From: Azolla caroliniana
Lineage: Eukaryota > Plantae > Polypodiophyta
Length of the DNA stretch: 64,000 nt
NCBI GenBank assembly: GCA_043228905.1
Contig: JBHGNT010000003.1
Coordinates: 8,556,001 to 8,620,000, forward strand
Direction of reading: 5' to 3'
The stretch's first letter is position 1; each line of letters starts with the position of its first letter. Positions 5,237 to 64,000 of the stretch are shown here, in pieces. Below the pieces are notes generated by a model. The model had not been told where the DNA came from. It worked only from the letters and a program-made list of their open reading frames with translations, and did no database searches. The position numbers and the translations under genes were made by a program.

Positions 5237-5881
5237 TGTCGTGAAGAAAACTGTCCCCAGGCGCAAACCGTGTATAGCGTGTGTGAACCGGCCCTTACAG
5301 GTGGACACGCCCCTTGTTGTATAGTAGATAGGTAGGCACAAAAGTCGAATCCTAGGTAGCAATATTCTATAGAGAGAATTAATGTGATGTAAACGGGTGA
5401 AACGGCCTCCCTCCTTGAGCTATAAAAGAGAGGGAGACGGGGAGAGAATGTATTGTGCGCTAGAGGGGACGAAGTGCTGTCGGACTGGGACCGAGCTCTT
5501 CTTCTTTGTCGTTCTCCATAGTTTTCTTTTGCGCAGGTTCTCAGGAGGCTGATTCTGCTCCGTGGAACGCCCGTGTGCTTCCGACAGAATCTCCATCTTG
5601 CTCCCCTGTGTGCGTGGGTGATCAGGCGTCGGCATCCATCTCGCCGACCTGATCGGCTGTAACCGTTCGAGTCGTCTGCAAACATACATATTTTATTTAC
5701 ATACGCTAGTGTTCTCAACTCGTGTCTCCTGTGTTGTTGGGCCGCGTTCCCGTGCGCTTCTTTGTCTATACGTGTGTGAGCGTCTCTCTCTTTCCTCCCC
5801 TTTTCTCACCTATTCCTCGGTCCAAGACCCCAGTGGTCCCGCCTTGTTCTCCACGCACGCGCGTAATAACGCGACATCTTT

Positions 5882-5898
5882 TGGTGAACCCGATGTGA
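5882..5898 (+). promoter_or_regulatory. Primer binding site complementary to the tRNA-Trp 3' end
   Basis: TGGTGAACCCGATGTGA, one mismatch to the reverse complement of the plant tRNA-Trp end TCACGTCGGGTTCACCA (recalled sequence); perfect copies in C and F. Confidence 0.85.
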
Positions 5899-5920
5899 AT
5901 AGGCGGCAGAGGAGTAGAAG

Positions 5921-8037
5921 ATGAGGGGGTCGGACCTCGTAGAAGCCATGGCTTCGGCTGTGGACCATATAGTGAGTGCGCGCGAAGGCACCGACGCCCT
6001 TGATAGGGCTATCGAGGCGGTTGTCGGTACGATCGGCCGGTTTAGTGGGAAGGATGCCACGAGCTACTTGGCGTCCTACCGGGCTGAGATGGTAATGAGG
6101 GACATTCCGGAAGAGACCGGATTCCCTCGAGTGGCAATGCTGGGCATCCATACGGAGGTGCTCGAGGTACGGGCCGAGAGCCGGACCTGGGAGGAGTTCG
6201 AAGGTCGGCTCATCGAAAAATACGGGCTTGAAGATGCGCTTCGACTTTCGAAGCGGGACTTCATGGAGTGGGTGGAGACCCCCAACAAAGGAAGGAACGC
6301 GTCGGTGCTCCTCCGGGAGTTTGAGGAACGCTTCGCGCGCCTCTCGATGCTTGACCGAACCGTTTTGGACACAAGCCATGTCCTATTGTTTGTTAAGTCA
6401 GTTGACGAGCGGGATCGGGAGCAGGTAGGCCTCCTATTGGAGACTGATGACGGGCTGACGACCGATTGGGCTGTGGTGAAAAGGGTTTGTGGCCATTTTG
6501 ACAAACGGCGGGAATGGGTTGACAAAGGATCGACAGGGGCGGGCTCTGTCGCAGCAAGGAAGCTCGAGCCAACACCACCAACGTGAAGGGAAGAGACCCG
6601 AGATTAGCTCAAGACCGGATCGGCTTCGACCGGCATGGTCAAGGGCTCGTCCAGGGGAGCAACTCTGGAGGAACTAACGCAGATGGTAAAGGATCTCCAG
6701 ATCGCCCAAGCACGGAGGGACGGTAGCGAACAGGGCCGTGATCGATGACCTCTGGCTGGAAATAGGTGCATGTGGTGTGACGCGGTTGGCCACATCCGGA
6801 AGGACTGCGGGGACTTCGCCGAGGCGATGAGAAGCAACGTGGTGTACTTGTGGAACGGTCGGGTGCACGCCAACGAGACCCGAAGGGCCCTAGACCTAAA
6901 CGTCGGGCGAGGATGTATGAAAAGGCTGATGGAGGAGGCGACGACTCGTCACGCGGAGACCGTCCACTACTCGGCGTCAACTGGTATTCGGGTCGGAGGT
7001 GGCGAGGCCCCGAAGACGAACCAAGCCGGGTTCTGGCCGACGATGCTAGAAGGCCTCGCCGGCGCACGACTAAGGAAAGAAGAGGCGAACCGCGTGGAAA
7101 AACGGGTCCGGGAGGTAATCGGGTGGAGTGACCCGGTGGAAGAAAAGACGAGCTTCGTCGAAGCCGCTTGTCAAAACTACAAGGCTCTGGTGGAGGACAA
7201 GTGGGTAGGGAAAACTGGAGGGGCTGGGCCCTCGCAACGATATGAAACTCGATTCGGGCAAAGGCGGAATGAGGCCAGTGTAACCGGCGCCCAGGATAAT
7301 CCCAAGAGGGGCGGGTACCGGCTGGGCACAGAAATCGAAAGATCCACGGACCTGCGAAAGGTCCTGGAAGAACGAATCCTCGATAGCAAGGTGGAACTGT
7401 CGCTGAGGGAAGTGCTCGGGATCGCCACGAAGGAGTTCCACGACTCCATCGTAGACTTGGTGAAGAGGAAGAGGCTGTTGACGGAGACAGAACCGGAGAA
7501 GCCGGTGGAGGTGCGGATGATGCACATAGAGGACATGGCACGGGAAGAGAGTTGGCGGAGAGCCACTATTTGAGGCCGCACTGGGCCAGAGCGACCACGG
7601 AGACCCCCATGAAGATCGGAGATGTTCATGAACCGGTGGTGGCGTTGGTGGACCACGGTTCAGAAATCAATTTGATGTCCATGGACTTCTACAAGAAGGG
7701 GAAATGGCCGACCAACATGAAGCACGGGTGGAAAATACGGGCGGCGACGCGTGCCACCGAAGAACTGCATGGAGCCTGCCCGAATGTACGAGTAAAGATC
7801 GGCGATGTCGAGATTGACCAGCACTTCTTCGTGTAGGAGACGTCCTCACATTCGGTTATACTAGGAGAACCGTACATCACGACAGCACGGATGGAGACCA
7901 AGGTGCTGGATAATGGCTCGGCCTATGCAAGGGTCAAGAGCCAAGATGGGCGTCACTTGGTCCAGTTCCTGACGGTGAGACCGAACAATGAGCGGAACCG
8001 CGAGACCCTCGGGGGCGAAAGCCGAGAGGATTTTTAG
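5921..8037 (+). pseudogene. Element B ORF1: gag (capsid-like region, CX2CX4HX4C knuckle) plus aspartic protease
   Basis: ORFs 5921..6586, 6770..7573 (C-MW-CDAVGHIRKDC) and 7552..7836 (ALVDHGSEINLM); ends EDF* at 8035-8037. Confidence 0.85.
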
Positions 8038-11000
8038 AGAGGGCTATCAAGGTGTGGGGCCGCGATAGTATGGACACTCCGGGAAAACCCCACAAGTGTA
8101 TGATAGCGAAGAAGACCTGTACTATAAGTAGGAAATTTTGGTTCTCCGACAACGGAGGGTGTACGATAGTCGACGTCGTTGGCCGGAAGAAGAAAAGGGC
8201 GGAGGAGCGACTTCGGGCATGTGGTATCCTCGGCCCTGGAGAGGAAATCAACGGAGCCGTGGAGGCGGTCTCTTTCGACGATACCTTGGGGGAGCTGCGA
8301 GAGGTAGTCGGAGGAGTCCTTAAAGAGGACCGGACGATTCCGGTATGTTCGGAAAGGATGTACGAAGTCATCGCGGACTTCAGTAGAGGGCTCGAGTCGG
8401 ATCAGACGGCCCGGGTGGACATGAGGTACAAGATTGTGGACCGGAAGGTGAGGCCAGTCGCGGCTCCCTTGCCGGAGGGCAGCGAGTTGCGAATAAAGGG
8501 GGTTGCGTCGGACCCGAGTTTACAAAATCTGGCCCGCATAGGACACACGTTCACCGACATAACGCTACGTGAGCTCAAAATCGGTGGGGGCGGCTTCCTA
8601 CTGCTGGTGGAAGAGGACCGGTTTCGGGGAATGCTCGGAAGGCACGGGAAGGCTTTCGCATTCTCACCGGAGGAGATCGGGTGCGTAGACCCGACAGTCG
8701 TAGAACCGATGGTGATATTCACGGTACCGCATGTGCCGTGGAGTCTCAAACCGATTCCAGTACCCAGAGCTCACATCCCGAAGTTGATGGAGCTGTTAAA
8801 GCAGAAGGTTGAGATGGGCATCCTCGAACCGTCGAGTGCCCCATACTCGAATCGGTGGTTTACCGTGCCGAAGAAGGACGGCACGCTGCGCTTTATTCAA
8901 GACCTACAGCCGGTCAACAAGGTGACCATTCGAAACGTAGGAATCGGACCGACAATAGACGAGTTCACGGAGGCCTTCGCCGGAAGGTCGATTTACTCGG
9001 TCGGTGATCTCTACTCGGGGTACGATCAGTTCCAGCTAGCCGTAGAGAGCAGAGACATCACGACAATGCGAACTCCTCTCGGCCTAGTACGGATGTGTAC
9101 CCTACCGCAAGGAGGGACGAACTCGGTGGCTCACATGGTGAACGCAATGAACAAGGTGCTGAGGGATTGTATCCCGGACATCACCGAGCCGTTTTTGGAC
9201 GACGTCCCGATCAAGGGATGCCCGGTGGAGGAAAAGGACGAGACGATCGGACCGGACGGGTGCCGGAAATTCGTGGCGATGCACATCAATGACTGCGAGA
9301 AGGTGCTGCAGAGGTTAGAGGGCGCGAGGCTCACCTTCTCCGGGGGAAAATCGGCCTTCGGGCAATCAGAGATCATGGTCGTCGGACACCTATGCGGGTC
9401 GTACGGGCGGAAACCGTCTCCGGCTAAGGTAGAAGCCATCTCCGCGATGAAGCACGACTGTAGCTCGGTCACAGAGGTTCGGAGGTTCTTGGGAGCATGC
9501 GCGTTCTACCACATTTGGATCCCGCATTACGCCCACGTCGCGGAGCCGTTATACGGGTTGCTGAAAAAGGGGCGAAAATTCGAGTGGAGAGACGAGCATA
9601 CAGAGTCTGTCCGAAAGATGAAGGAAGCACTTGCTGCAGCTCCGGCGCTCCGAAAGGCTGTCTACGGAAAGGACACTCCAATTTACGTAACGGTAGACAC
9701 GAGTCCGACCGGGATCAGATGGGTCGTCAACCAAGAGGACGAGGACGACATGCGTTTCCCGACCCGGTTCGGCGCGAAGGTCCTCAACGAGCGACAACAA
9801 GGATATGCCCAGGTTAAACGCGAGCTCTGGGGTATCGTTTCAGCGGTAAAGGCCGATAAAGACTACCTGATCGGGACAGAGGTAATTATTGAGACAGACT
9901 GCCTGCCAATTCTTGGCATGGTTTCTGGATGCGCGACGTCGGACCTGGCAATGCTCAGGTGGATATAGTAGATCAAGTCCTTGAATCCGGAAATACGACA
10001 CATTTCCGGGAAAGGCAATGCCATGGCCGACATGCTTTCAAGGGCGAGGTTCGCAAATGAGGGCGGCATGGTTTCGGAGGACGAGGAAGTCGGCGTGGAC
10101 TTCTTCGAGGCGGCTTACGTAACAACCGGCAGGGAATGCACTCCAACACTTAACGATTTCGACGAGAGCAAGTACAACGGGGAGTGGCTGCAGATCGGTG
10201 GGTTCCTGAAAACAATGGCGCCGGACGTGGCATGGACAAAGGATGAGGCTAACCGGATTCGAAAGAAAGCGTACCGATTCTTTCTCTAGGACGGGTACAT
10301 ATGGAAGCACCAGAAGAAGAGGAACGACATCCCGCTCCGAGTGGTGGCGAAGAAGGAGGAACAGGAGGATTTGCTGGCGGCATACCATGATAGTCCTTGG
10401 GCTGGACACCGTGGAACGTGGGCCACGTTCGAAAAGCTAAAGGGGAAGTACTGGTGGCCGGGACTGTACCGGGACGTGCATCGGTTCGTGAAGACTTGCG
10501 AAAGCTGTCAGGTGCACTCCATGATCCGACATTGAGACGAGCTTCACCCGACCTACCCTCCGACCGTCCACTTCAAGTGGATGGTGGATTTGGTGACGAT
10601 GCCAATGGGGGTAGGATAGATGCGGTATCTGGTGCTGGCTCGGGAGGATCTAACGAACCAGGTTGAAGGCCGAGCCCTGCAGAACAAGACGACTGCAGCC
10701 GTGTTCCGGTTTTTTATTGAGGACGTGGTATGTCGATACGGGTGTGTAGGAAAGATTGTGGCTGACCGTGGTGAGTTGGAGGCAGAAGAGGCCAAAGAGC
10801 TGTTCGACCGGCTGGGAGTCAAACTTTCGCTCACCACAGCGTACAATCCGGAGGTGAACGGAAAGGTAGAGCGCGGACATGGGCCGATTGTCAAAGCGCT
10901 AGTACGGGCGTGCGGAGGCCAAGTCGGGAACTGGCCACGACTGCTACCTTATGCCTTGTGGGCGGACCGGACTACGCACAGTTCGGTAACCGGGTTCATG

Positions 11001-11522
11001 CCGGCAGAGCTTATGTTCGGACAGAAGCCGATCATGCCAACAGAGCGAACGATCTCCTCGTGGGCCACGGTGGACTGGAGGGATGAGATGAGCCGGGAGG
11101 AACTATTGGCGGCACGGATTCGACAGCTCGAGCGGAGGCCGGAGGTCGTAGAGCGAGCCGCAGAGAAACTTCGGGTAGCGAGGATAAGGAACAAAGCCCG
11201 GTTCGACCGAACACACCGGCTCCGGCCAAGGAAGATCGAGGAAGGCGATTGGGTGCTAGTCTACGACAACAACCTCGACAATAAGCACAGGGCCACGCGG
11301 AAGTTTGCGAGGAGGTGGTTTGGGCCTTACGTAGTAACAGGCGCCAACGACAATGGGACGTACCATCTCGCGGAGCTCGACGGTACGAGAATGGCGATAC
11401 CGGTAGGGGGGAAGAGGATCAAAGCGTTCAAGAAACGACACGACGGCGAGCCAGAGCTAGGAGGCATGGATAGCAACGACAAGCAGCCCGAGGTGGAGGA
11501 CGAACCGGTAAACGAGGAATAA
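8031..11522 (+). pseudogene. Element B ORF2: RT, RNase H and integrase in the -1 frame, with several point stops
   Basis: 8052..9968 (LPQGGTNS..FLDDVPIKG; VTVDTSPTG..KRELWG), 9981..10289, 10341..10535 (HHCC zinc finger), 10620..11522 (DDE core, RWFGPY). Confidence 0.92.
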
Positions 11523-12238
11523 AAGCAAGGACCGGTTTTCTCCAGTAGGAACCCAATTTTGGCGCATACCGGTGGATGCGCGGTTAGGTGGGGGCGGATG
11601 TCGTGAAGAAAACCGTCCCCAGGCGCAAACCGTGTATAGCGTGTGTGAACCGGCCCTTACAGGTGGACACGCCCCTTGTTGTATAGTAGATAGGTAGGCA
11701 CAAAAGTCGAATCCTAGGTAGCAATATTCTATAGAGAGAATTAATGTGATGTAAACGGGTGAAACGGCCTCCCTCCTTGAGCTATAAAAGAGAGGGAGAC
11801 GGGGAGAGAATGTATCGCGCGCTAGAGGGGACGAAGTGCTGTCGGACTGGGACCGAGCTCTTCTTCTCTGTCGTTCTCCATAGTTTTCTTTTGCGCAGGT
11901 TCTCAGGAGACTGATTCTGCTCCGTGGAACGCCAGTGTGCTTCCGGCAGAATCTCCATCTTGCTCCCCTGTGTGCGTGGGTGATCAGGCGTCAGCATCCA
12001 TCTCGCCGACCTGATCGGCTGTAACCGTTCGAGTCGTCTGCAAACATACATATTTTATTTACATATGCTAGTGTTCTCAACTCGTGTCTCCTGTGTTGTT
12101 GGGCCGCGTTCCCGTGCGCTTCTTTGTCTATACGTGTGTGAGCGTCTCTCTCTTTCCTCCCCTTTTCTCACCTATTCCTCGGTCCAAGACCCCAGTGGTC
12201 CCGCCTTGTTTTCCACGCACGCGCGTAATAACGCGACA

Positions 12239-18915: not shown

Positions 18916-19013
18916 TGTTGAGCGGCAAGCTCAATCGGATCCAGATCGGTTGAATAAGCCTGAGCCGGATCGGTGAGCCGGTGAGCAAGTGAGCCGATGA
19001 GTTGGGGAGCCGG

Positions 19014-22000
19014 TGTCGTGCCTTTCAGCTCCGGATCGTTGCGTGAGTCGGGTGGGAACCGCCGAGGTTTTGGACTAGGAGGAGGAAGAATTTGAGGCTA
19101 ATCTAGTTATGAATATGAATAGATTATAAGAAAGAGATATAGAAACTTGTGAATCCCACAAGTATAATTGTTTTAGTTTATCTAAATCGTAGTAATAAAT
19201 TGAAATAATTTAGAATAGATTAGAGTAGATTGAGAAAAGAGATCAAACCTTGTGAATCCCACAAGTATTACATTAATCAATATTTATGTAAGAATATGAA
19301 TTTAGATTGAAAGAGATAGATTATCTTAAACTTCGTGAATCCCACGAGTATATTTTATTGATTGTTGGTGTTTTAGGAAATATATCCAATTTCCCAAATA
19401 TTTTTCACACCTATTACATTGTGCTCCCCATCCTTATGTAGTGATGGGAGAGACTAAGCATAGCTACATGCTTTTTTTCTAATATGTTCATGCACACTAA
19501 ATGTGCATGTGATGCTTTTCTAATCCTTGCTTTTATTTGCTAAATATAGTGCTCATGCACGCTAGATGTGCATGAGTCACTTTTTAGTTGCTTGCGTTTT
19601 TCTATAAAATATTCACGCACTCTAAAAATGCACGATTTACCTTTTAATAAAGGTAGGTGCAAATAAAGCACTTATAGTTATTAAATCTATTTGTAGAACA
19701 CTAAAGATAAGGTAGCATAATGGTAAAGTTTAGGTTTGGCTACGTGGAGGTACAGGGTTCTAATCTTGCCCTATGCACGTGATAAATATCTTGATATATT
19801 ATTTTATTTATTTATATGTAATTAAATCGGTTATATTATTTTTTACTTTTTCACGTAGTGTACGAAATACACTACGACACTCGCCCCCTCCGAACCCGCA
19901 CATCCTCCGGTATGTGCCGAAGTTGCCGATGCTCGTTGTCTCCCCTTCATCCTCCGTTTGTCCCGCTATGTCAACTTTGTCTCTCCATTTTGAGTAGACC
20001 CATTCTTCCCACCCGAACCATTGTCGCCATCCGATCCACCATATTCTTTGTTCTCTCTCGTCATATTCTTGGCCCTTGTCATTCGTGGTAGTGTCTTTTA
20101 CTGGCCTCTTTCTTGTCTTCATCAACCTTGACTTTTTTCCGGATCGCTCTCGTCCGATCGACTTTCGGTTTGATCGGCTTCCGATCGGATTCGTATTCGG
20201 CCGAATCGGAATCGGTTGTTCGGTTTCGATTGAGTTGGTCTCCTTCCGGCCCGGTTTCGATCTATCGGTTTTGGTTTCGGTTGGCTTTCTTTTCCTCGTT
20301 TTCACCAGTCTCGACCGGTCCAACCTCCGGTTGAGTCGGATTAGCTTCTTTCCGGATCGGTCTCGTCCGATTGGCTTTCGGCTAGGTCGGCTTCCATCCA
20401 TATTCGCGTTCGGCCAAGTCAGACTCGGTCGATCGGTTTTGATCGAGTCGACCCCTTTTCGGGTCGGCTTTCTTTCGGGTCGTCCTACGGCTGAATCCTC
20501 ATTCGCCCGGTTCGGCTTTCGTTTGTGTCGTCTTTCGGCCGAATTCTCTTCCTTTCGGTTCGGCTTTCTTTCGGGTCGACTTTCGGTCGAATCCTCTTTT
20601 ACCCGGTTCGGCTTTCTTTCGGATCGGAATCCCGTCCGGATCACCTTCCATCCTAACTGGCTTCTGACTTTACCTTTCTTGCCGCCACCTCCCATCTCTC
20701 CGGTCTCACGTTGCTTCTCAGACACAACCGCCGAAGTCTCTAGGATTAGTGGGTAGGAATCCTCGGTATTATCATCCTCTGTCATTTCAACCATAGCCTC
20801 CTTCTCGGCTATCTCTCCGTCGTATGAATCGGCTTCGACCTTTGTTTTCTCTCCACCACCTTCCGTCTCTTCGGTCTCACGTTGCCTTTCGAACGCAACC
20901 GCCGGAGTCTCTAGATATTGTTGGCATGAATCCTCGGTATTACCTTCTTTCGTAGTTTCACCCTTAGCATTCTTCTCGGCTATCTCTTCATCGTATTCGT
21001 CGGCTTCGACATTCGTTTTCTCTCCGCCACCTTCCGTCTCTTCGGTCTCACGTTGCCTTTCGATCGCAACCGCCGGAGTCTCTGGAATTAGTGGTGGGGA
21101 AGTCTCGATATGGCAATCTGCCATTGATTCGTCCATAGCCACCTCCGATTCGATTTCGTCTTTTGTGGCTACCTCCTTAATCACATCCGCTTCACACTCT
21201 TTATCTGCATCAATTATGCAAACATCTATTATGCTTACCCCTTTTTGACCCGATGTCTCGAGCACTTGTATCCCGAAATTTCCTTCTACACTTGAATTAT
21301 CGGCCTTATCCTTCGCCATCGTTCTTTCACAAGACGAGTGGGTGTCTTGTTCCACTCTTTCTCCCGTGGTACCATCATGTTGTATTTCGGCCTTCATATT
21401 GGCTTCATCGTTTTTCCTCAATCGACCATCCTTCATGGGCCATGTCGTTGTTGACGAGATTCTCAGCTTCCTTTCATCATGTCTTCGGCATACCCTTTCG
21501 ACTTTAGCCCAATCCTCGGTAAGGCCGTTCGCACCGTCATCATCTTCGAGTTCGATCCCAATGTCCATCCTTTCTTTCCGATCGATCGATCTTACGAACA
21601 TTAAGACTTTATCTCCTCCCACCAATCTTCGTTCCCGCTCCGAGAGTCGAGCAAAACGATGCTCGAACTCTAGGAACGCTTGCGTTGCACTTCGGTGAGT
21701 CTTCTCCGACGCCACCCATTCGTCGAATTCTCGTCGATCTCGTCCCGTCCATCTCTCATAGTCATATGCCTCCCGTAAAGCTTCTTCAAAGGACTCCCAT
21801 GTCGAGTTTTGTTGTTGTATCTTGTGGATTCTCTCTTGTAGTTCGTCCGAGGCCACCCGACTAAAGGATATCACTTGCAATCCTTCCGGTATCCGATATT
21901 GCATCATCTCCGCCTTATATTCACGTAGGTAGCGTGACACACCCTTACCGTTGAATTCCCCGTTTCGTCGCAGAAGCCGCTCTACTGCCGCCTTCATCTC

Positions 22001-22985
22001 CGACATCGCTCGTTGTTCTTGTAGCATCCGCTCGAACATCATCATCATCGTTATGCTCATTGCCTCTTGTTGATTCTCCATCTCCTTGCCACCCGCCTTC
22101 ACGTCGGGTTCACCAACTGTGTCGTGCCTTTCGGCTCCGGATCGTTGCGTGAGTCGGGTGGGAACCGCCGAGGTTTTGGACTAGGAGGAGGAAGAATTTG
22201 AGGCTAATCTAGTTATGAATATGAATAGATTATAAGAAAGAGATATAGAAACTTGTGAATCCCACAAGTATAATTGTTTTAGTTTATCTAAATCGTAGTA
22301 ATAAATTGAAATAATTTAGAATAGATTAGAGTAGATTGAGAAAAGAGATCAAACCTTGTGAATCCCACAAGTATTACATTAATCAATATTTATGTAAGAA
22401 TATGAATTTAGATTGAAAGAGATAGATTATCTTAAACTTCGTGAATCCCACGAGTATATTTTATTGATTGTTGGTGTTTTAGGAAATATATCCAATTTCC
22501 CAAATATTTTTCACACCTATTACATTGTGCTCCCCATCCTTATGTAGTGATGGGAGAGACTAAGCATAGCTACATGCTTTTTTTCTAATATGTTCATGCA
22601 CACTAAATGTGCATGTGATGCTTTTCTAATCCTTGCTTTTATTTGCTAAATATAGTGCTCATGCACGCTAGATGTGCATGAGTCACTTTTTAGTTGCTTG
22701 CGTTTTTCTATAAAATATTCACGCACTCTAAAAATGCACGATTTACCTTTTAATAAAGGTAGGTGCAAATAAAGCACTTATAGTTATTAAATCTATTTGT
22801 AGAACACTAAAGATAAGGTAGCATAATGGTAAAGTTTAGGTTTGGCTACGTGGAGGTACAGGGTTCTAATCTTGCCCTATGCACGTGATAAATATCTTGA
22901 TATATTATTTTATTTATTTATATGTAATTAAATCGGTTATATTATTTTTTACTTTTTCACGTAGTGTACGAAATACACTACGACA
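19014..22985 (-). mobile_element. Element C: very young pol-less tRNA-Trp-primed LTR element (3972 bp) with one long ORF
   Basis: 866-bp LTRs at 19014-19879 and 22120-22985, only one substitution seen; TSD CCGG (19010-19013 / 22986-22989); perfect Trp PBS 22099-22115; PPT next to 19880. Confidence 0.95.
19808..22081 (-). CDS. Intact ~757-aa Gag-derived protein: capsid-like N-terminus, acidic PET repeats, basic repeats, Trp-rich C-terminus
   Basis: ORF 19808..22102, first ATG at 22081; N-terminus aligns with B gag (FNGKGVSRYL..VLMFVRSID..GLTEDWAKVERVC vs FSGKDATSYL..LLFVKSVD..GLTTDWAVVKRVC); no PR, RT or INT motifs. Confidence 0.8.
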   Translation of the reverse strand: MENQQEAMSITMMMMFERMLQEQRAMSEMKAAVERLLRRNGEFNGKGVSRYLREYKAEMMQYRIPEGLQVISFSRVASDELQERIHKIQQQNSTWESFEEALREAYDYERWTGRDRREFDEWVASEKTHRSATQAFLEFEHRFARLSERERRLVGGDKVLMFVRSIDRKERMDIGIELEDDDGANGLTEDWAKVERVCRRHDERKLRISSTTTWPMKDGRLRKNDEANMKAEIQHDGTTGERVEQDTHSSCERTMAKDKADNSSVEGNFGIQVLETSGQKGVSIIDVCIIDADKECEADVIKEVATKDEIESEVAMDESMADCHIETSPPLIPETPAVAIERQRETEETEGGGEKTNVEADEYDEEIAEKNAKGETTKEGNTEDSCQQYLETPAVAFERQRETEETEGGGEKTKVEADSYDGEIAEKEAMVEMTEDDNTEDSYPLILETSAVVSEKQRETGEMGGGGKKGKVRSQLGWKVIRTGFRSERKPNRVKEDSTESRPERKPNRKEENSAERRHKRKPNRANEDSAVGRPERKPTRKGVDSIKTDRPSLTWPNANMDGSRPSRKPIGRDRSGKKLIRLNRRLDRSRLVKTRKRKPTETKTDRSKPGRKETNSIETEQPIPIRPNTNPIGSRSNRKSIGRERSGKKSRLMKTRKRPVKDTTTNDKGQEYDEREQRIWWIGWRQWFGWEEWVYSKWRDKVDIAGQTEDEGETTSIGNFGTYRRMCGFGGGECRSVFRTLREKVKNNITDLITYK

Positions 22986-23235
22986 CCGGTTAGGTGGATC
23001 CAGTAGTAACCGGAAGCCTAGTAGCAGCCTAGAGTACTAGGTAGTTAATGTATTGTAGTTAGTGTCAGATGCTCGTGTGAGCATTGAAGTACATTGTACT
23101 TCTGTCAGTCCTCTTAGGACTTGTATAAATAATGTTGTTGAGCATGTAGTATGTACAAAGAATTTTATAGAGAACTATTATTGTTTTGATAATAGATTTA
23201 AGTTGTTCTGCTCTTTCTCTATCTCTCCTGCGTAT

Positions 23236-36344: not shown

Positions 36345-37327
36345 TGTAAAAACAAAGGTGCGGAAGCGTTAGACAACTGGCTCAACCGGATAGCAACAGA
36401 GAGAGAGAGAGATTAATATGCAAGAGAGACAGAGAAAGAGCAGAACAACTTAAATCTATTATCAAAACAATAATAGTTCTCTGTAAAATTCTCTGTACAT
36501 ACTACGTGCTCAACAACACTATTTATACAAGTCCTAAGAGGATTGACAGAAGTATGGTGTACTTCAATGCTCACACGAGCGTCTGACACTAACTACAAGA
36601 CATTAACTACCTAGTAGTCTAGGCTGCTACTAGGCTTCCGGTTACTGCTGGATCCGGCTAACCGGCTCCCCAACTCATCGACTCACTTGCTCATTGGCAC
36701 ACCGATCCGGCTCATCCTTCCGGATGCCGATCCGGATCCGGTTGATCTTGTTGCTCAACACTCCCCCTCAAGCTCAACTTGAGGTCTAATCGTAGTGTTA
36801 GTCTCCATGGCAGCCTGTCCGTCCACCCGGCTCCTTCTGGCGTCACTCCGCGTCGCTCGTGCTCCTCGTCCGGTTCGGTCCCGTTTGCCGCGACCCTTCT
36901 GATTTTGCGCACCTCGATCTCCTCGGTTGGCTTGTCTGCACAATAGGCCCAATTTAGCTCCCTCGCTGCTGTGACTTTGGCGCTTGCCGATTCGCCGATT
37001 CCTTCGTGTTGGCCTCGACTTTCGCTGCCTTCTCGTCCTCTTGGCCTTGAATTGATCTGGTTCTTCTGAATCCGTTTGTTTAACCGAATCAACTGTTTCC
37101 GATTCGTTCTAGTTGTTGTCCGAATTAGTCGCTCCCGATTCGTCTTCCGGTTCCAGGCCCTTCACCACATCGGACCATGTCTGGGTCTTGGCCTTCTTCT
37201 TCCGGTCGGATCTGTCCTTCTTGACTCTGTTGCCACTACTGCTTGTTCCGACTTGTTCGGATGTGTCAACTTCCTTTGTCGACTCGGCTCCTTTCTTCTT
37301 CTTGTCTCTCCCTTTGTCGGTTCTTCC

Positions 37328-42642: not shown

Positions 42643-42680
<38 letters not shown>

Positions 42681-42867: not shown

Positions 42868-43688
42868 CTTCCCTCACCGGCGTAATCGGCAGTTTCTTTG
42901 CTTTTGCCCGTTCCGGTGTCTTTGCTTGTTCTCCCCCTCAAGTGTGGCACGTTGAGATGCTAAACACCAAGCATTTCGGTGAAGTGCTACAACTTGTCCG
43001 ATCCGAGCGGTTTGGTGAAAATGTCGACAACTTGCCGATTCGTATGAACATACCGAAGTTTGACTTCACCACTCAGCACACGCTCATGCACGAAGTGGTA
43101 GTGCACTTCTATGTGCTTTGTGCAAGCATGGAATATGGGGTTCTTGGTGAGCTGCGTGCTGCTTATGTTGTCACATTAGATCAGGGTCGGGGTCGGCACC
43201 TCGATCCGCAGGTCTTGTAGCAGTCGCCAAAGCCAAATGGTTTCACAGGTGGCAACGGTAGCGCCTTGGTATTCAGCCTTAGTGCTTGAAAGGGCCACTG
43301 TTGGCTGCTTTTTGCTGCTCCATGCAACAACTGCGCTACCAAGGGAAAACAGATAGTCGGAGGTGGATCCGCGATCCGATGCATCGCCGGCCCAGTCGGC
43401 ATCGGTGTAGTCGGCTAGCTCTTCGGTTATACCATGCCGGTATAACAGTCCCCGGTCCTTTGTGCCGCTCACATATCGCAATATCCGATGTGTGCATTGA
43501 AGGTGTTCCACGGTTGGCTTCTGCATGAATTGGCTGATCACTCCGACCAGATAACTGATGTTGGGTTGGGTGATTGTCAAATATATAAGGCTTCCGACGA
43601 TTTGTTGGAACCTTATCACTTCATTCTTCTCTTCTTGTGATCTCTTTCCATCATTCTTCCGCCACTCTATCTTTTCTCTTGGTTCTGA

Positions 43689-49190: not shown

Positions 49191-52100
49191 TGTCGCGTTA
49201 TTACGCGCGTGTGTGTAGAAAGGTGGGACCACGGGGGTCCTGGACTAGCGAGTGACAGAGCGCAGGAAGTCGTGCTTCACCCTTTTCGGGGCACCCCAGG
49301 AGCACACTAGAAGCAACCGAACGAGAGAGAGAAAGAGAGGGAGACAGAGAGGGAGCGCGTGCTTGACACCGACTCATGCATACACACGCACACACCGACT
49401 CGACTCACGCCCTTATGTGCAGGAACGCAGGAAAGGGGAAGTACCCAACACCAACAGAGACACGAGTATACACAGACAGACGCAAAAGTATGTATTACAA
49501 GGGAAAGAATACAACCCCGGCTTCGAGCCGGACCAAGCTAGGGTAGGTTACAACAGTAGTCTGCAGCCAAGGCGCCGTCCGGGGAGCTCTCGGGCTCGTC
49601 ACGCAGAGCGGGGTCTTGCATAGGAGACCGAGCGGGAACAACCCTCCACAGTCCACCCACACCGTGAAGAAGAGGAAGAAGAAGTAGAAGAACTAACCCT
49701 AAATCTAACGGTATACCCTCTAACAAAAAATGGGCAACCCCTCTACAAGGGACCATCCCTTCCTTTTATAGAACAAGGAGAGGGATGCGTTACAATGTGG
49801 GTTAAATCCTGATTTACATGGGATTCTTCGTCCCGACTTGACTCTTATTATTCACACAATTACATGAGGGAGAGTGCACATGGTGCACCCCGCCGATGTA
49901 GCCAATATTTCCCGGTTTCCGCCTCTGGACGAAATTCTTCACGACATTCGCCCCCATCTAACAACACGTCCACCACTATGTGCCAAATCTGGTGAAGGGT
50001 GAGAGATTTCGGCCGGTGAGAAACCGGTCTTCCGTAATCCGCACCCCGGCTCGCTGCCGGTTTGAACCATCAGCTTCGGTTCTACCTTCGCGCTTACCTC
50101 CCCGTAGGCTCGTTTGACTCGTCGATGGGTCCTTCGCCGCGATCTCTGTAGTACGCGTACTTCCGCTGGCCCTTGTTCGGCCGTATGCACGCTCCGTTCT
50201 CCGCCGTATGCTCGATGTCCTCCACTTGAAGAACGCCCATAGTGGCCCGCTTGGCCTCCGTCGACCATTCGTGTTGTCCTGATTGCCTTCCCATGTTGCT
50301 TCGCGTTGCCTTCGTCCTCTCGCCGCCACCTTCCTTCTCCATGGTCTTACGTCGCTGCGTCGGCTCGAACCGCCATGGTCTCCGGAACGGTGTGGAGGAT
50401 CTTTTTCTGGCCTTCTACGCGCTACCTCCGAACTGCGCAACCCATCTTCGCACTCGCCTTTCCACTCCGGCACCTCCGTGTGCCGCATACCCTCGTCCGT
50501 TGTTTAGCACTGCCTGTGCCGTACTCCGATTCATTGCACGCCTTGTCGGCCCCTTTCTTGGCTAGATCGTGCACCGCCGCTCACCCGCATACCAGTGTCC
50601 TCCGCATCCGAGGAACACCCCGTAGTAGCTCGCTTGGCCCTTCCCGTCTTCGTGCTGCTGCAACAGGTCCTGAGTTTTCCGCTTGCTGTCGTCCCCTCGC
50701 CCCCACCAGCTTGTCACCCCGGGCTTGCCGTGTCAGTCTTCGCTACCTCGACGGAGCTATCGAGATCTACGAAGCAAGTGTGGAGGATCCTCCTCTGGCC
50801 TCTCTTGCCATCCCCTAACTCCGACCCTGTGCAATCCACTAGGCACCCGTCACCTCGTTCCCGGCACCTCCCTTGTGCCGTCTTCTGCTTCCTTTGTTCG
50901 GCACCACCCGTGCCGAACACCGTCCAATAGTCACGCTTCGATCCGGCCCACGATGGCCACTTGCGAGACTCTTGTTCCGTCCCAGGTGTGCCTTTTCGGC
51001 CCGACACACCTCCCCGGGTTTGCCCTACCGGCTCCTTCCGCTACCGTAACCGGCCGGTAAGGGCTCCACACTTCGTTCGTCCTGTCTTACCGACCTTTGT
51101 CGATGCCAGGTCCCGTCCCTTGCCGCCACCTTCCTTCTCCCTCGGTCTTACGTTGCCACGTCGGTCGAACAACCGTGGTCTCCGGAACGGTGTGAAGATC
51201 CCATAGGACCGGTCTTCGTTTCGTTGCTTGCCGAAATTCAGGGTGTCTTTGTTGGAGTCCCTCCCGGATTCTCCTCGTGTCTTCTGCGTAGCCGCCACCA
51301 ACCTCTCTCGGTCTCATGTTGCCACGTTGGCCGACCAGTCGGAGTCTCTGGTTTGGTGTGGGGATCCCGTAGGACCGGACTTCCTTACGCCCACTCACCT
51401 TGCCGGAAGGTTTGAGATGGTCCGTAGCCGCCTTGCAGGCCTGATACCTTCTTTCTCTACTTCCGTCGTCCGATCACGTTCACCTGCCGCCACCTATCTT
51501 CCCTATAGGACTCACGCCGGCACTCGGGCCGACCGCTGGATCGGTGTGAGGATCTTCATGGGACCTTGGTTTGCCCGCCCTTGTCCCCCCGCCACCACCG
51601 TCAATATCTTGGTCTTACGCCGACCGCGCTGCTGACTGCCGAAGTCTCTAGATCCAGTGTGAAGGATCCTCCTTGGGCTCCTCGTATCCTTGACCCTTAT
51701 CCCGGGTCTTCCTTCTTTTGCAAGTCGAGAGGGTGGCTTGCTCCACACCCTCTCCCGTGGTACCGACGTACCGTGTTCCCGGCCTCTTCATAGGCCTGCT
51801 CTCTTCCTCCCTCCCGCAATGGTTATCTGGGAGTCCACTCCGCCCGGTTCTCGTCCGGGTCCGTTCGTCATTCTCCGGATTGCCGGGTCCCGTTTTCCTG
51901 TCGCCACCGACCTCTCCTATAGGACTCACGCTGGTACTCGGGCCGACCGCCGGATTGGTGTGAAGATCTCATGGGACCGGTCTTTGTTCTCCTCTTCATC
52001 CCCGTACTTCTCTGTAACTTGTCGCCACTCTCCTTGTTGCGTTCCCGCCTCCATCTTCCATCTCTTTCGGTCTTACGTTGCCCCGTTGACCGAACAGCCG

Positions 52101-54637
52101 TAGTCTCCGGATAGGATGTGGCGTAACCGATTTCGCAACGTCTTTTGGCAACTCGTCCGGGCCACCGCCCCTTTTAGTGGTGTCGGTGGATAGCATCTGC
52201 TCTGTGATCAATCAAGCCCCGCCTGAGCTTGATTCTCCAATGTCCGGAGTTTCGGCTCCGATGCCGATCTTGCCAGACTCGTTCCGAACCTCTGATCACC
52301 CTCCTTCCAATTCCCGACCTTCGCCCGCTCGGTCTTTCTCCCCATGTAAAATAGGGCGGCTCGCCCCACACCCTCTCCCGTATCGGCACCTTTATGCCGA
52401 ATCCGGCCCCGATCGAACAATCCACGACCGGATTATGCTCCACCCGTATCAGAGCGTCACACGTTTCGGTCCCCGGTCGGGTTGTCCCTTGGTCTCTTCG
52501 TCGACCTTTTCGCGGGCCTTCTCCCATCCATCTTCGATGGCATCGTGCCAGGACTCCTTGATACCGTCATCCATCTCCGCAGTCTCACTTGGGCATAAGG
52601 GCCCGAATGCCGAGTTCTCCGGAATCGGGTTCGAGGGCTTTTGTCCGCTCCTTCCCCGTATCGTCTCGCCGGTGATTCTTGGTCTCTCGCAGCCGTCTTC
52701 CTCCTCTTGGGACTTACGTGGGCACTCGGGCCTGACTATCGTCGTCTCGGGAGCAAGTGTGAGAAGACGCAAAGAATCGCCCATCCGTTTTACGCCCTTG
52801 TCCGTAGCCACCGGCTCTTCGTGGTCGGCGGTCGTCTCCTTACCGATCGCGCAAGCCCCGTCTGGGCTTGCTTCTCCAATGACCGAGGTTTCGGGCTGAC
52901 ACGCCTGACACCGCTGGTTCCAACGTTCCGATCCCACGATCGGTATCTCGGCCTCGTCCTTGGCCGTTCTATCTCCGCAAGTTGAGAGGGCGTTTTGTTC
53001 CGCACCCTCTCTTGTGGTACCGTGGTACCGACCTTCCGTCATCGCGTGGGGCAAGTCCGTCTCCTCAGTCTCGGCTTGCGGCCTCGATCTTTCCTCTTCC
53101 TTGAGCATTGCCTCGAGAGCTGCGTATGCCTCCAAAATCCTGGCCCCAACGCCGACCCTTGCCGACTCTCTTTGCCGTTCGGCCTCTTCCCGCTGTGATG
53201 GCATGCCGTCGCGCGCCTTCCTCTTAGCCTTTTCGGCTCGCTCATTGTCTAGACGTTGGCACACCCTTCCAACCTTCGACCAGTCCTCCGAAAGCCCATT
53301 TGCTCTGTCATCATCTTCGAGCTCAATCCCGATGGCCTCCCGTTCCGCTCGGTCAATCGACCTGACGAACAATAGGACTTTGTTCGCCCCCACCAAACCT
53401 TGTTCCCGTTCCCGGAGCCGAGCAAGCCATCGCTCGAACTCCCAAAACGCCTTCATTGTGCCACGGTGGGTCTTTGCCGATGCTACCCACTGGTCGAAGT
53501 CGTGCCGTCCCCGGCTCTTCCGCCGTCCTCCATATGCCTGCAGGGAGCGCCTCTTCAAAGGCCTCCCACGAACTATGAGCTTGCCGGAGCTCCTTCACTT
53601 CCGCGTGTGTACGGACGACGACAACCCAACAGAAGAACTCCAGCCTCAATGCTTCGTCCACGTCTCGCTCCTCCATTTCCGCATTGTAGGCTTCCAAGTA
53701 AGATGGGACTTCATCCCCGTTGAAACGGCCGACTCTTTTGACCACTCGCTCAACCGCTTGTTGCGCTGCTTCTCGCCTCATCACCACTCGTGCCGACTCC
53801 AACACCACTACGGCCACCATCACCGCGAGGTCGTCGTCTTCCGATTCCATCCTCCCTTGCCGCCTTTCACGTCGGGTTCACCAAATATGTCGCGTTGTTA
53901 CGTGCGTGCGTGTAGAAAGGAGGGACCACGGGGGTCCTGGACTAGGGAGTGACGGAGTGCAGGAAGTCGTGCTTCACCCTTTTCGGGGCACCCCAGGAGC
54001 ACACCGGAAGCAACCGAACGAGAGAGAGAAAGACAAGGAGAAAGAGAGGGAGCGCGCGCTTGACACCGACTCACGCACACACACACCGACCCGACTCACG
54101 CCCTTGTGTGCAGGAACGCAGGAAAGGGGAAGCACCCGACACCAACAGAGACACGAGTATACACAGACAGACGCAAAAGTATGTATTACAAGGGAAAGAA
54201 TACAACCCCGGCTTCGAGCCGGACCAAGCTAGGGTAGGTTACAACAGTAGTCTGCAGCCAAGGCGCCGTCCGGGGAGCTCTCGGGCTCGTCACGCAAAGC
54301 AGGGTCTTGCATAGGAGACCGAGCGAGAACAACCCTCCACAGTCCACCCACACCGCGAAGAAGAGGAAGAAGAAGTAGAAGAACTAACCCTAAATCTAAC
54401 GGTATACCCTCTGACACAAAATGGGCAACCCCTCTACAAGGGACCATCCCTTCCTTTTATAGAACAAGGAGAGGGATGTGTTACAATGTGGGATAAATCT
54501 TGATTTACATGGGATTCTTCGTCCCGACTTGACTCTTATTATTCATACAATTATATGAGGGAGAGTGCACATGGTGCACCCCGCCAATGTAGCCAATATT
54601 TCCCGGTTTCCGCCTCTGGACGAAATTCTTCACGACA
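49191..54637 (-). mobile_element. Element F: pol-less tRNA-Trp-primed LTR element with a GC-rich LTR whose U5 end resembles B
   Basis: LTRs 49191-49946 and 53888-54637; TSD ATGT/ACGT; perfect Trp PBS 53867-53883; PPT next to 49947; no PR, RT or INT motifs internally. Confidence 0.93.
49976..53850 (-). pseudogene. Element F Gag-derived long ORF, frameshifted, with an expanded PET-type repeat tail
   Basis: 53353..53850 (VGRFNGDEVPSYLEAYNAEM) and 52449..53558 (VLLFVRSID..GLSEDWSKVGRVC; PETTIVRPECPRKSQEEE); PETTVVRPTWQRKTEGEG in 51087..51398. Confidence 0.75.
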
Positions 54638-60666: not shown

Positions 60667-61367
60667 TGTCGTGATGTGGCATGTCTAGTGCGAGAAAAAC
60701 TCAAAAAATGAGGATCCACACACATTTCACGAATACTTGTAAAAATGAAAATAAATAAACCTAGGTCACAATGGCATTGAGTGCATGTAGAGGGTTGCAA
60801 GTAGGATTTGAACCTTGCACCTCTAAGGTAAGAGGCAATTACCTTACCACTAAAGCTACTACAAAGTGCTTTAGATGTTCTATATTTCTTTCTCATATTC
60901 AATATTCCGTAGGAAACAAACGAACAAAACCGTGTACACAAAACCACGGTTTTAAGCCCATGGTTTCCTGCAGGTCACAAAGCAAAACTGTGTGCACAGA
61001 AACCATGGCTCCAAGCCCATGGTTTTGTGCATGGACAAACCTATAAAACCCCTAGTACGGCTTGTGTAAGGGGGGGCTCAATATGATATGACCATCATCA
61101 TCACCATCAATAATATAAGCTTCTATTTCTTCTTCTTCGCATCTATCTTGTAATTATTTATCTACTTCTGAAAGTGTACAATCTTCAATCTTCTCAAGTG
61201 TAATAGGTCTTCCTCCAATCTTACATTCACATCGTCCTCTTCTCAATACCTTGACGAACATCCTCCTTGGTCCAAGACCCCGGTGGTCCCGCTCAAGCGA
61301 AGCACGCTCGCACGCGCATCTTCGCGACATATTTTGGCAAACCCGACGTGAAGAGCGGTAGGGGAGG

Positions 61368-64000
61368 ATGAAGCTGGACGAGGAATATCTAATGAAGGCA
61401 ATGTCAAAGATGATGATGGAGTTTTCAAGAGAAGGGAAAACACGACATGCGGCCCAACAAGCTGTTGAAAGCATGATGAAGCGAGTCGGGGTTTTTGATG
61501 GAGGCAAAGTCCAAAAATTTCTAAAGGCCTACAATGCCGAAATGGATTCAAGAGGAGTGGAGGAAGCAATGAAGCTGGAGTACTTTTGTCGAGTGGTGGC
61601 CGAACCGATCTTCGAAGAGATTAAAGAGATTCAAAAAACTCACGATTCGTGGGTGTCCTTCAAAGAAGCTTTACGAGAATCATATGGTTACGAAGAGCAA
61701 AAGGGACGAGGTCTGTATGAGTTTCACAAATGGGTGTCATCGAGAAAGACCCACCAGAGTGCTATGCATGCATTCGTTGAGTTTGAGTATCGCTTCGCTC
61801 AACTCTCGGACCGGGATCGAAGATTGGTGGGGGTGAATAAAGTTCTGATGTTTGTAAAGTCAATCGATCGGAAAGAAAGGAAGACCATTGGAATCCAACT
61901 CGAGGATGACAATGGTGAAAATGGCCTCACTGAGGATTGGGCCAAAGTGGAAAGGGTATGCCGACAACACGATAAGAGGGAGATGAGACTCTCATCGACA
62001 ACAACACGACCCACAAGGGATGTTCAAAGGACAATGGGATGTGGCAATAAAAACCCACTGAAGGAAGAAAGCTCGAAGAGGGAAGCTTCGAAAGAACTAA
62101 ACATAGAAGCCTTGATGAGAGAGGCAATAATGAACTTAAAGGCACAAGTCGGGGTTGAAGAGAAGCTGAAAACAAAACCGAGGAAAATGGTGATCAACGA
62201 AGAGGAGACCTCTCGACAAATGCAGACTAATGGTACAGCCAATACGAAGGCCCAGGTTCGGTATGACAGTACCATGGGAGAAGGTGTGAAACAAACCACC
62301 TTCTCGACTTATGGAGGAACGACGGTCGAGAGAAGGGCCAAAGACTCGAGAGCGGGAAATGCTGCTTTAAGAGTGGACAAGCATTTCGGAACACATGATG
62401 TGTCCGAAATATCGAGTAATGAAGGTGCAAGCATGAGGGAAGCTTGCGTGATCAAGGGATGTAAAGAGTGCGAGGTCGACGTGATTGAGGCGGTAGCCAC
62501 GAGGAACGACATCGAGTCGCAGATGGCTAAGGAAGAGTCCACGACGAATGACCGTGTCGAGACTTTCCTAACACTTGATCTAGAGACTTGGGCAGTTGCG
62601 TTCGAGAGCCAACATGAGACCCAAGAGACGGAAAGTGGTGGGGAAGAAAATATTGAAGACAATGCGAATAACAACATTGAGCGAAAGATGGCTACGGATG
62701 AGAAGACGGTGACAGATGGTGTCGACGTTCTCCCCACAATTGTTCCTGAGACTTCGGCAGTTGTGCTCGAGTGTCAACGTGAGACCGGAGAGATGGAAGG
62801 TGACGGCAAGAAATCGAAGGACCAAAACGGCGATGAGGACGATGACCACAAACGAAGGGATCCCTCCACACCGGTTCCGGAGACTTCGGTAGTTGTGCCC
62901 GAGAGCCAACATAAGACCGGAGAGATGTCGAATACAAGTGTATAATGGACGTATTCACACTATCCCTTTGTATAGATCAAGTTTGGGCCATTTGTGTAAT
63001 TAGCATAAATGGTAGTTGCCCTAAGTCAGTCACTATATATAGTGACCTTGTAACCTCTTTGTAAGGTTGGTTGTATTATTGTTTTCTATGGAATAGAAAA
63101 AGTCTTTTGTGCCTCTTCTCTCTCTCTCTCTCTCTCTCTGTGCACGATCTTGGAAACTGTCATACGCAGGTACTCGAAACCCTAATCGAATGCTTCTTGA
63201 TCTTCCGCATCGACACGGCCTTGTCTTCAACAAGAGATGGAAGGTGGCAGTGAGGAGATGAGGGTCGAAGCCAGCACATACAGAGGAACGATGGCCAACA
63301 AGGAGGCCAAAAATAAAGCTACAATAGAGTTCGATGAAGAGCCAAAGAGCGGAAAGAAAGGAAGAACTGGAATACAATCTGGATGGAAGATGAAGTCGTT
63401 GGTATTCCAACCCGAACGGAAGCCAACCCGAACGAGAGTTGATCAACCGGGCCCGACCCAACTGAAAACCGGACGGAAACTAACCCGGACGAAAGTCGAT
63501 CATCTGATTCTGATTCGGCCGAATGTGAATCCGAACGAAGGCCGACCAAGCCAGAAGTTGATTGGTCGAGACCGATCCCGACAGAAGTTGAGCCGGCCTA
63601 GACGGAGGTCGAAGCAAACAAGCCGCGACATCCAGTCGAGGCTGTTGAGCATAAGGAAAGGCAAGCATGAGACAAGAAAGGATGATAAAGAAAAGTTAAG
63701 TGACCAAGGAGATGGCCGAGATGAAGGTGGCACATGCACGAGGCATGAAGCGTTATGCTCGGGAGGAGCAAAGGGAGCCATGACAACTAGACATGACAAT
63801 AAAACAGGTGAGCGAATGATATGGTGGATCGGATGGCAACGACAGTTCGAAGTAGACGGCAAAAAGATGGTGCGGACGAGCCGCAAGAAAGGAGGAAGTC
63901 AAACACCAACCGCCTTTGACCCTTCCACATCACTCTTTTCTTCTTGGCACATACCGGAGGATGTGCAGTTTGGTGGGGGTGGATGTCGTGATGTGGCATG
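61368..64000 (+). pseudogene. Element G Gag-derived long ORF (>770 aa once the solo LTR is removed), homologous to the C ORF
   Basis: ORF 61368..62945 is cut by a solo LTR; by manual translation the frame resumes at 63237 and is stop-free to the window end (KKGRTGIQSGWK..ERKPTR..IGRDRSRQKL..IWWIGWQ..FGGGGCR). Confidence 0.85.
62926..63232 (+). mobile_element. Solo LTR of the element I Copia family
   Basis: Reverse-complement match to the I LTR; TG...CA termini; TSD AGAGA (62921-62925 / 63233-63237). Confidence 0.95.

What the first reader, a model, noticed from the sequence alone, without database searches (positions are those of the whole stretch)
19014..22985. Pol-less Trp-primed LTR elements keeping a ~760-aa Gag-capsid/acidic/basic/WWIGW protein (C; also G and F)
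Seen: three separate elements (C 19014-22985, F 49191-54637, G 60667-64000) have largely dissimilar LTRs but share the PBS, PPT and TGTCG...CGACA ends of autonomous-type B/E/K. None has PR, RT, RH or INT. Each has one ORF starting ~17-20 nt after the PBS, whose first ~200 aa match B gag. The zinc knuckle and protease are replaced by an acidic block with PET..RQRET.E.EGGG repeats, followed in C and G by a basic block (ERKPNR repeats, IGRDRS.KKL) and an IWWIGW motif; the frame reads through the PPT into the 3' LTR. C is fully open and has near-identical LTRs, so it moved very recently. Inference: these are not simple deletion derivatives but a satellite-like lineage encoding its own modified capsid protein. 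It could co-assemble with, redirect or restrict helper particles (conceptually like Gag-derived Ty1 p22), with the basic tail replacing the nucleocapsid. Whether this is already described cannot be determined here.
Basis: partly seen in the sequence, partly recalled or inferred. Interest (0 to 1): 0.85.

Follow-up and report, generated by a model that had tools for sequence, protein, structure and literature searches.

The report
Satellite retrotransposons keeping a tailed capsid
These are high-copy plant jumping genes that have lost their copying enzymes but keep one open gene, in which a conserved capsid part and a short tryptophan-rich end are joined by a freely drifting linker; the protein likely helps the element's own RNA use the particles of a complete partner element, a variant of the known Gag-only parasites.

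Summary
Element C is real: 866-nt LTRs with one mismatch, 4-bp TSD, one 757-aa ORF, no zinc knuckle, protease or pol. Trp-type PBS and NCGN target sites (63 of 64) match the REXdb Phygy lineage. The first 205 aa model as a Ty3/Arc-type capsid under purifying selection (dN/dS 0.2-0.5). The acidic and basic blocks drift (about 1) yet stay stop-free (0 of 164 shared changes are stops, against 20 of 392 private ones) up to a conserved C-terminal Trp-rich motif. Corrections: G is broken by a solo LTR, F is decayed and lacks the motif, read-through into the LTR is incidental, and C's partner is not B: C is a recombinant carrying another helper family's LTR and capsid N-domain. New here: N-domain-only and C-domain-only subfamilies (the latter still under selection) and, in metagenome contigs, a capsid-less form, all keeping the frame to the motif. 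Gag-only elements (TR-GAG, wheat Quinta) are known, so this is a new variant. Selection across transposing copies favours a cis-acting helper-hijacking role over p22-like restriction. Expression is untested.

The parts
22120..22985 (-). C 5' LTR (866 nt), about 80% to the LTR of a 7.07-kb autonomous family
22100..22115 (-). C primer-binding site, tRNA-Trp type (tRNA identity recalled; no tRNA gene in the window)
   Evidence: Phygy PBS type
19808..22081 (-). C single ORF, 757 aa
21761..22081 (-). capsid N-domain with leading helix (aa 1-107), helper-derived, dN/dS 0.34 against the helper
21781..21799 (-). approximate in-frame recombination junction, helper type to satellite type
   Evidence: C nt 1187-1205 overlap of the two matches
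21467..21760 (-). capsid C-domain (aa 108-205), satellite-lineage type, dN/dS 0.19-0.36
20678..21466 (-). acidic linker (aa 206-468) with three 171-nt repeats; dN/dS about 1 between subfamilies
20054..20677 (-). basic block (aa 469-676); dN/dS 0.83-0.98
19964..20053 (-). Trp-rich motif RIWWIGWRQWFGW..W..SKW (aa 677-706), conserved in frame with synonymous variation
19880..19979 (-). PPT block, helper type; read in different frames by different subfamilies
19014..19879 (-). C 3' LTR
19010..19013 (.). target-site duplication CCGG (other copy 22986-22989); C sits inside a Copia-type LTR
60667..64000 (+). element G: 5' LTR 60667-61329, PBS 61335-61350, ORF 61368-62945 (525 aa), remaining tail 63234-63987, 3' LTR from 63987; intact relatives are 780-782 aa
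62926..63232 (-). solo Copia-type LTR inserted in G, 5-bp TSD
49191..54637 (-). element F: older decayed relative, LTRs 95% alike, frameshifted capsid, no Trp motif
5237..12238 (+). autonomous-type element B (broken); its LTR 3' end matches G and F, not C

Best explanation
C, G and F belong to an old lineage of non-autonomous Ty3/gypsy elements, probably of the Phygy group, that borrow protease, reverse transcriptase and integrase from a complete partner (inferred) and keep a capsid-linker-Trp-motif protein that likely acts in cis to bring the element's own RNA into the partner's particles. Shown: element anatomy, shared PBS, LTR ends and NCGN target sites, capsid fold (model), purifying selection on capsid and motif, neutral but stop-free linker, and an in-frame swap that gave C the helper's LTR, PBS and capsid N-domain. 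Inferred: the protein is made; its capsid part co-assembles with helper Gag; the linker is a disordered tether whose basic part may hold RNA by charge alone; the Trp motif binds an unknown partner (helper protein, membrane or a silencing factor); the benefit is cis-preferential.
For: High copy number with near-identical LTRs. TSD 63 of 64 NCGN, as in the autonomous family, so the same kind of integrase inserts them. An autonomous family with the same LTR ends and PBS exists: 12 of 12 fetched copies have an open 680-aa gag-protease frame, 3 of 9 examined a full 1251-aa pol frame. Capsid: AF2 pLDDT 84; the top 13 Foldseek rows and top 21 VIA rows are retro-type capsids (Z up to 10.0; next unrelated fold 4.0); Atlas 0.94 to Retrotrans_gag. 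dN/dS C-domain 0.19-0.36 in 5 pairs, off-frame controls 1.4-2.8; N-domain shared N/S 25/28 against private 47/10, p=0.0001. Tail: 0 of 164 shared changes are stops against 20 of 392 private, p=0.0017, no such gap in the two off frames; simulation expects 10-16 stops. Copies sharing a stop are not nearest relatives, so these are recurrent CGA changes after insertion. Motif pN/pS 0.30 in frame against 2.0 and 1.2. Tree incongruence of N- and C-domain (95/97 and 100/97). Precedent for a cis-acting non-autonomous protein: IAP 1-delta-1 (PMC6466679, passages).
Against: No expression or protein evidence. Half-capsid forms could not build a shell alone, and a capsid-less form exists in metagenome contigs, so the capsid is not essential for spreading. 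The motif is partly lost in successful subfamilies (second half replaced in G; W to C in the commonest C-like form; stop at its last W in 3 C-domain-only copies). The motif dN/dS set was picked by the motif itself, which inflates conservation; of 4 unbiased own-genome pairs only 1 has an interval below 1. Foldseek E-values are weak (best 0.14; none at 0.001). Within-family C-domain contrast alone is not significant (p=0.22). The basic charge is also the default of the off frames on this purine-rich strand.
Confidence: 0.55

Rival explanations
1. Translation itself is what is selected: an open frame from PBS to near the 3' LTR keeps the RNA stable (for example against nonsense-mediated decay) or routes it to assembly sites; the tail protein has no function and the capsid only a minor one.
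For: ORFs end within -106 to +72 nt of the 3' LTR for internal lengths of 1.5-2.3 kb, in any frame; linker dN/dS about 1; compensated frameshift stretches and non-homologous tails occur; even a capsid-less ORF spans the element.
Against: Does not explain dN/dS 0.2-0.5 on the capsid, 29/33 N/S in the C-domain-only clade, or a motif kept in frame with synonymous variation behind unrelated flanks. The helper RNA itself has a stop 3.6 kb before its LTR.
Confidence: 0.2
2. Mutualistic Gag donor, as proposed for wheat RLG_Quinta: the elements supply bulk capsid protein in trans for all partners.
For: Same broad layout (Gag plus unknown domain), old lineage and Gag swapping as Quinta (PMC11302176 passages); capsid conserved.
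Against: The zinc knuckle is gone; half-capsid forms spread; a purely trans benefit would not keep stop codons out of individual transposing lineages (inference).
Confidence: 0.12
3. p22-like restriction or interference: the protein, above all the C-domain-only form, caps helper lattices and limits helper transposition.
For: A monophyletic C-domain-only subfamily (7 of 7; 100/99) keeps purifying selection on that domain; Ty1 p18 is an Arc-like Gag fragment proposed to block assembly (PMC8458377 abstract).
Against: These are dispersed, recently transposed copies, not fixed host loci; an inhibitor of the helper would block the copies' own spread; p22 comes from an internal transcript of the autonomous element.
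Confidence: 0.1
4. Plain deletion derivatives with a chance ORF.
For: Tail dN/dS about 1; F-type and most G-type copies are broken (3 of 18 G open).
Against: Stop avoidance, capsid selection, separate clade, tail absent from autonomous elements.
Confidence: 0.03

Closest known systems
TR-GAG elements (Chaparro et al. 2015, PMC4350172; abstract and parts 2 and 4 of 5 of the text read)
   Same: LTRs, PBS, PPT, TSD, under 4 kb (C, G), one ORF with Gag, no pol, many young copies.
   Different: Only the capsid is kept; zinc knuckle lost; 450-570 extra residues ending in a conserved Trp motif; 4-bp NCGN TSD; invisible to the Pfam Gag models used to find TR-GAGs.
Wheat RLG_Quinta with RLG_Cereba, and Sabrina/WHAM (PMC11302176; passages read)
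   Same: Old Gag-plus-unknown-domain lineage beside an autonomous partner, shared PBS and LTR ends, recombination swapping Gag.
   Different: Different gypsy lineage; here half-capsid and capsid-less forms, neutral linker and selection mapped by domain; no sequence comparison with Quinta DUF1 was possible.
Phygy lineage of REXdb (PMC6317226; passages and supplement table row read)
   Same: tRNA-Trp PBS (81% of Phygy) and 4-bp NCGN TSD (100%).
   Different: Phygy elements listed are 7.7-10 kb with pol; no non-autonomous form is mentioned in the passages seen; RT-tree placement not tested.
Mouse IAP 1-delta-1 (via review PMC6466679 passage; the primary paper was not held)
   Same: Non-autonomous element whose in-frame product favours its own mobilisation in cis.
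   Different: That protein is a gag-pol deletion fusion; here the tail is not from pol.
Ty1 p22/p18 and Drt2 (PMC8458377 abstract; search listings)
   Same: Capsid C-domain fragment of Arc-like fold.
   Different: Host- or element-level restriction from an internal transcript or a domesticated locus, not a separately transposing family with a long tail.

Membership tests
TR-GAG | LTRs with TG..CA ends, PBS, PPT and TSD | tested here: met
TR-GAG | single ORF with a Gag domain | tested here: met
   capsid by model and Atlas; not by Pfam; no nucleocapsid
TR-GAG | no PR, RT, RH, INT | tested here: met
TR-GAG | short (under about 4 kb) | tested here: met
   C 3972, C-like 3.5-3.8 kb, G-like 3.7 kb; F-like about 5 kb exceeds it
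TR-GAG | transcribed | tested here: inconclusive
   no run on record as RNA was listed
Phygy (REXdb) | 4-bp NCGN TSD | tested here: met
   63 of 64 exact TSDs among 90 elements with both ends found
Phygy (REXdb) | tRNA-Trp PBS | tested here: inconclusive
   PBS shared by helper and satellites; its match to tRNA-Trp is recalled, no tRNA gene compared
Phygy (REXdb) | RT/RH/INT tree placement of the helper | not testable with these tools
   REXdb sequences not held
p22-type restriction factor | capsid C-domain fragment | tested here: met
   only for the C-domain-only subfamily L155-L162; C and G carry both domains
p22-type restriction factor | trans-dominant inhibition of transposition | not testable with these tools
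   needs an assay
GW/WG Argonaute-hook proteins (recalled) | repeated GW in a disordered context that binds Argonaute | tested here: inconclusive
   only 2-3 GW per protein, tripled motif in one F-type copy; binding not tested

The most novel reading that the evidence does not exclude
The constant of this lineage is not the capsid but the C-terminal Trp-rich peptide on a long neutral tether: a cis-acting hijack tag (binding helper machinery, a membrane or Argonaute) carried by full-capsid, half-capsid and capsid-less satellites alike, with capsid halves swapped in to retarget new helper families.
Probability: 0.2. Interest if true: 0.75.

Novelty: new variant of a known kind. Interest (0 to 1): 0.5.

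Why it matters
Gag-only retroelements are common in plants, and the papers read here leave open what their Gag does. This family gives an unusually clear natural dissection: selection acts on the capsid, on keeping the frame open and on one short terminal motif, but not on 450 or more linker residues, and half-capsid forms spread. That turns 'donor, parasite or inhibitor' into testable predictions. These elements also escape Pfam Gag models, so Gag-only families may be undercounted in non-seed plants.

Tried and rejected
Expression: no RNA holder listed; four contig sets laid gave DNA-like or fragmentary cover and say nothing on expression. Complex prediction of the Trp motif with helper gag-protease: no answer (score 0.00, alignments not used), not used either way. 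Amphipathic helix: hydrophobic moment not above shuffles (35% as high), although AF2 models a helix. Tail origin: no Pfam or Atlas hit, no DNA match to helper or B outside the PPT block; the profile search gave 26 hits, and the 18 read are all this lineage; 3 of 36 metagenome hits were chance. An autonomous element with a G-type capsid: none among 11 longer proteins, weak evidence, and the genome was not searched exhaustively. B as C's helper: rejected. Selection in the N-domain-only subfamily: 9/8 N/S but few sites and picked by protein score, inconclusive. LTR identity does not separate open from broken C copies (99.47 against 99.58). Capsid-less form: no similarity to the capsid profile; not searched in the genome, absent from the window and loci held. 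Literature: 10 searches listed no paper on Gag-only Phygy elements or this motif; subscription journals, Repbase and REXdb entries were not searchable, and TR-GAG supplements were not read. Earlier scan findings were not available.
Full report
Observation. C lies on the minus strand at 19014-22985. Its two 866-nt LTRs differ at one base; with a recalled rate near 1e-8 per site per year that is of the order of 0.1 million years or less. The 4-bp duplication CCGG flanks it, and a paralogous Copia-type LTR in the window shows the empty site. The ORF starts 18 nt after the PBS, runs 757 aa and ends about 70 nt inside the 3' LTR; the other two frames hold 44 and 45 stops. It has no zinc knuckle or protease motif, which the autonomous gag has. 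G is interrupted by a 307-nt solo LTR with a 5-bp TSD and stops at 525 aa; the tail with the motif is still open behind the insertion. F is frameshifted, full of stops and lacks the motif.

The family. The genome is 523 Mb. Each query filled the scoring cap: C head 40 of 4576 candidates, 97-98% alike; C tail 40 of 1065; G 40 of 2634; F 40 of 1878; P0007 type 65 of 12172; P0003 type 81 of 13686; P0013 type 69 of 10700. Candidates are not copy numbers. Among copies gathered by DNA and with both PBS and PPT block recognised, the frame is open through the motif in 20 of 28 (C head; includes tandem duplicates), 19 of 33 (C tail) and 3 of 18 (G); 0 of 11 F-type copies pass 433 aa. Of 90 elements with both ends found, 64 have an exact 4-bp TSD and 63 of these are NCGN. 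REXdb's Phygy lineage has 4-bp NCGN TSDs (100%) and a tRNA-Trp PBS (81%) (PMC6317226, passages and one supplement row), so the host is probably a moss (inference; not pursued).

The helper and the chimera. A 7.07-kb autonomous family shares C's LTR ends, PBS and first 340 nt of gag at about 80%. All 12 fetched copies have an open 680-aa gag-protease frame; 3 of 9 examined have a full pol frame. After about nt 1190 of C the match switches in frame to the G type (76%, then 67%), and the last 100 nt before the 3' LTR are helper type again. Trees agree: the N-domain of C groups with this helper (95/97), the C-domain with G, F and the other satellites against all 5 autonomous rows (100/97) (18 of 20 rows in each tree, the half-capsid forms left out where the domain is missing). 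G and F instead share the LTR 3' end with B. None of 11 longer proteins with a G-type capsid carries a knuckle or protease.

Capsid. AF2 on a 44-row alignment gives two helical domains, pLDDT 84. Foldseek has no match at E 0.001, but its top 13 rows are PNMA2, dArc, Arc, Copia and Ty3 capsids; VIA gives Z 10.0 for dArc1 and 9.3 with rmsd 1.7 for the Arc N-lobe, and the first unrelated fold at 4.0. The Atlas gives 0.94 to Retrotrans_gag clusters. Pfam sees nothing.

Selection. Pairwise, with transitions weighted 4 to 1: C-domain dN/dS 0.19-0.36 in 5 pairs; N-domain 0.34 against the helper, 0.50-0.52 among G, F and P0007 types, 0.75 with wide intervals in the 3 distant pairs; acidic block 1.02-1.19 between subfamilies (0.58 in the one close pair); basic block 0.83-0.98; off-frame controls for the capsid mostly above 1.3. 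Within families, shared against private N/S is 25/28 against 47/10 for the N-domain (p=0.0001), 19/21 against 37/24 for the C-domain (p=0.22), 70/28 against 140/67 acidic and 33/24 against 92/60 basic. Yet 0 of 164 tail changes shared by three or more copies are stops, against 20 of 392 private ones (p=0.0017); off frames show 15 of 157 and 14 of 166; a neutral simulation gives 10-16 stops and never 0 in 1000 runs. The 3 shared indels found are multiples of three; 10 of 11 private ones are not (small numbers). Copies that share a stop are not nearest relatives. Homologous DNA is read in the same frame up to the motif and in different frames after it; ORF ends fall from -106 to +72 nt of the LTR.

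The motif. RIWWIGWRQWFGWK is kept in frame behind unrelated flanks, with synonymous variation at R, I, G, F, G and K codons; pN/pS 0.30 against 2.0 and 1.2 off frame in 13 sequences. Those 13 were chosen by the motif, so this is an upper view of its conservation; in own-genome pairs only C against the P0007 type is clearly below 1, and G keeps only the first half. It is tripled in one F-type copy. A search of 1.84 billion proteins gave 26 hits; the 18 read are this lineage. It models as a helix but is not markedly amphipathic.

Variants. An N-domain-only form (L135-L146) and a C-domain-only form (L155-L162) both keep the tail frame. The 7 C-domain-only copies analysed form one clade (100/99) and have N/S 29/33 in the domain against 102/39 in the tail, neutral expectation about 2.6-2.8. 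Of 36 metagenome loci, 33 match genome loci at 72-98%; four (L184-L186, L188) carry a different, capsid-less acidic ORF behind the same PBS, which in L185 runs 582 aa to the motif. These are short assemblies of repeats and could be chimeric.

Mechanism. Constraint that persists across independently inserted, transposing copies means the product most likely benefits its own template (inference). I therefore favour a cis-acting protein that docks on helper particles through its capsid part, with a tethered Trp motif binding an unknown partner, and with LTR and N-domain swaps re-pairing the satellite with new helpers (0.55). Rivals: translation-through alone (0.2), Gag donor in trans (0.12), p22-like inhibition (0.1), debris (0.03). 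The idea that the basic block replaces the nucleocapsid is neither shown nor excluded: acidic-then-basic order recurs in 7 of 7 representatives, but basic charge is also the off-frame default. No expression evidence exists either way.

Known and new. Gag-only elements are described as TR-GAG (PMC4350172, abstract and parts 2 and 4), shown to transpose (PMC8704663, passages) and reviewed with chimeras and tandem arrays (PMC13570524, passages). Wheat Quinta encodes Gag plus an unknown domain and swaps Gag by recombination (PMC11302176, passages). A cis-acting product is known for IAP 1-delta-1 (PMC6466679, passage). p18 is an Arc-like assembly blocker (PMC8458377, abstract). Passages of the Physcomitrium TE paper (PMC7466625) contain no Gag-only family, and PMC10924933 (passages) added only a general parallel. 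Ten searches listed nothing on this lineage or motif. Verdict: new variant of a known kind, interest 0.5.

Noticed in passing
L184-L186, L188 (metagenome contigs); L185:724-2469: Capsid-less element with the same PBS, a 582-aa acidic-repeat ORF ending in the Trp motif, G-like LTR, in tandem arrangement.
   Followed up: partly
L155-L162 (e.g. G000:C7:8571719-8576200): Subfamily that starts directly at the capsid C-domain, monophyletic and still under purifying selection; p22-like in layout.
   Followed up: yes
L135-L146: Subfamily with the capsid N-domain only; C-domain deleted with a short compensated frameshift, tail frame kept.
   Followed up: partly
G000:C16:15409114-15415985 and C3:11234988-11242069: Tandem arrays of C-like elements sharing LTRs (periods 2790 and 2895 nt).
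   Followed up: no
L102 (window 63987 onward): G's 3' LTR is truncated and abuts an inverted G-type copy with an open 782-aa ORF just right of the window.
   Followed up: partly
window 37325-42873: Young Copia-type element with a 1343-aa open polyprotein and LTRs 97.8% alike; its LTR type is the solo LTR inside G.
   Followed up: no
L090-L101: Autonomous family has gag-protease and pol in separate, overlapping frames (about 120 nt), suggesting a frameshift between protease and RT.
   Followed up: no
P0018: A protein from another source with helper-type capsid and a different decayed tail; possibly an independent Gag-only derivative.
   Followed up: no
window 48314-48999: LTR-like stretch 69-78% alike to the C and helper LTRs at the end of a broken autonomous-type element.
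   Followed up: no
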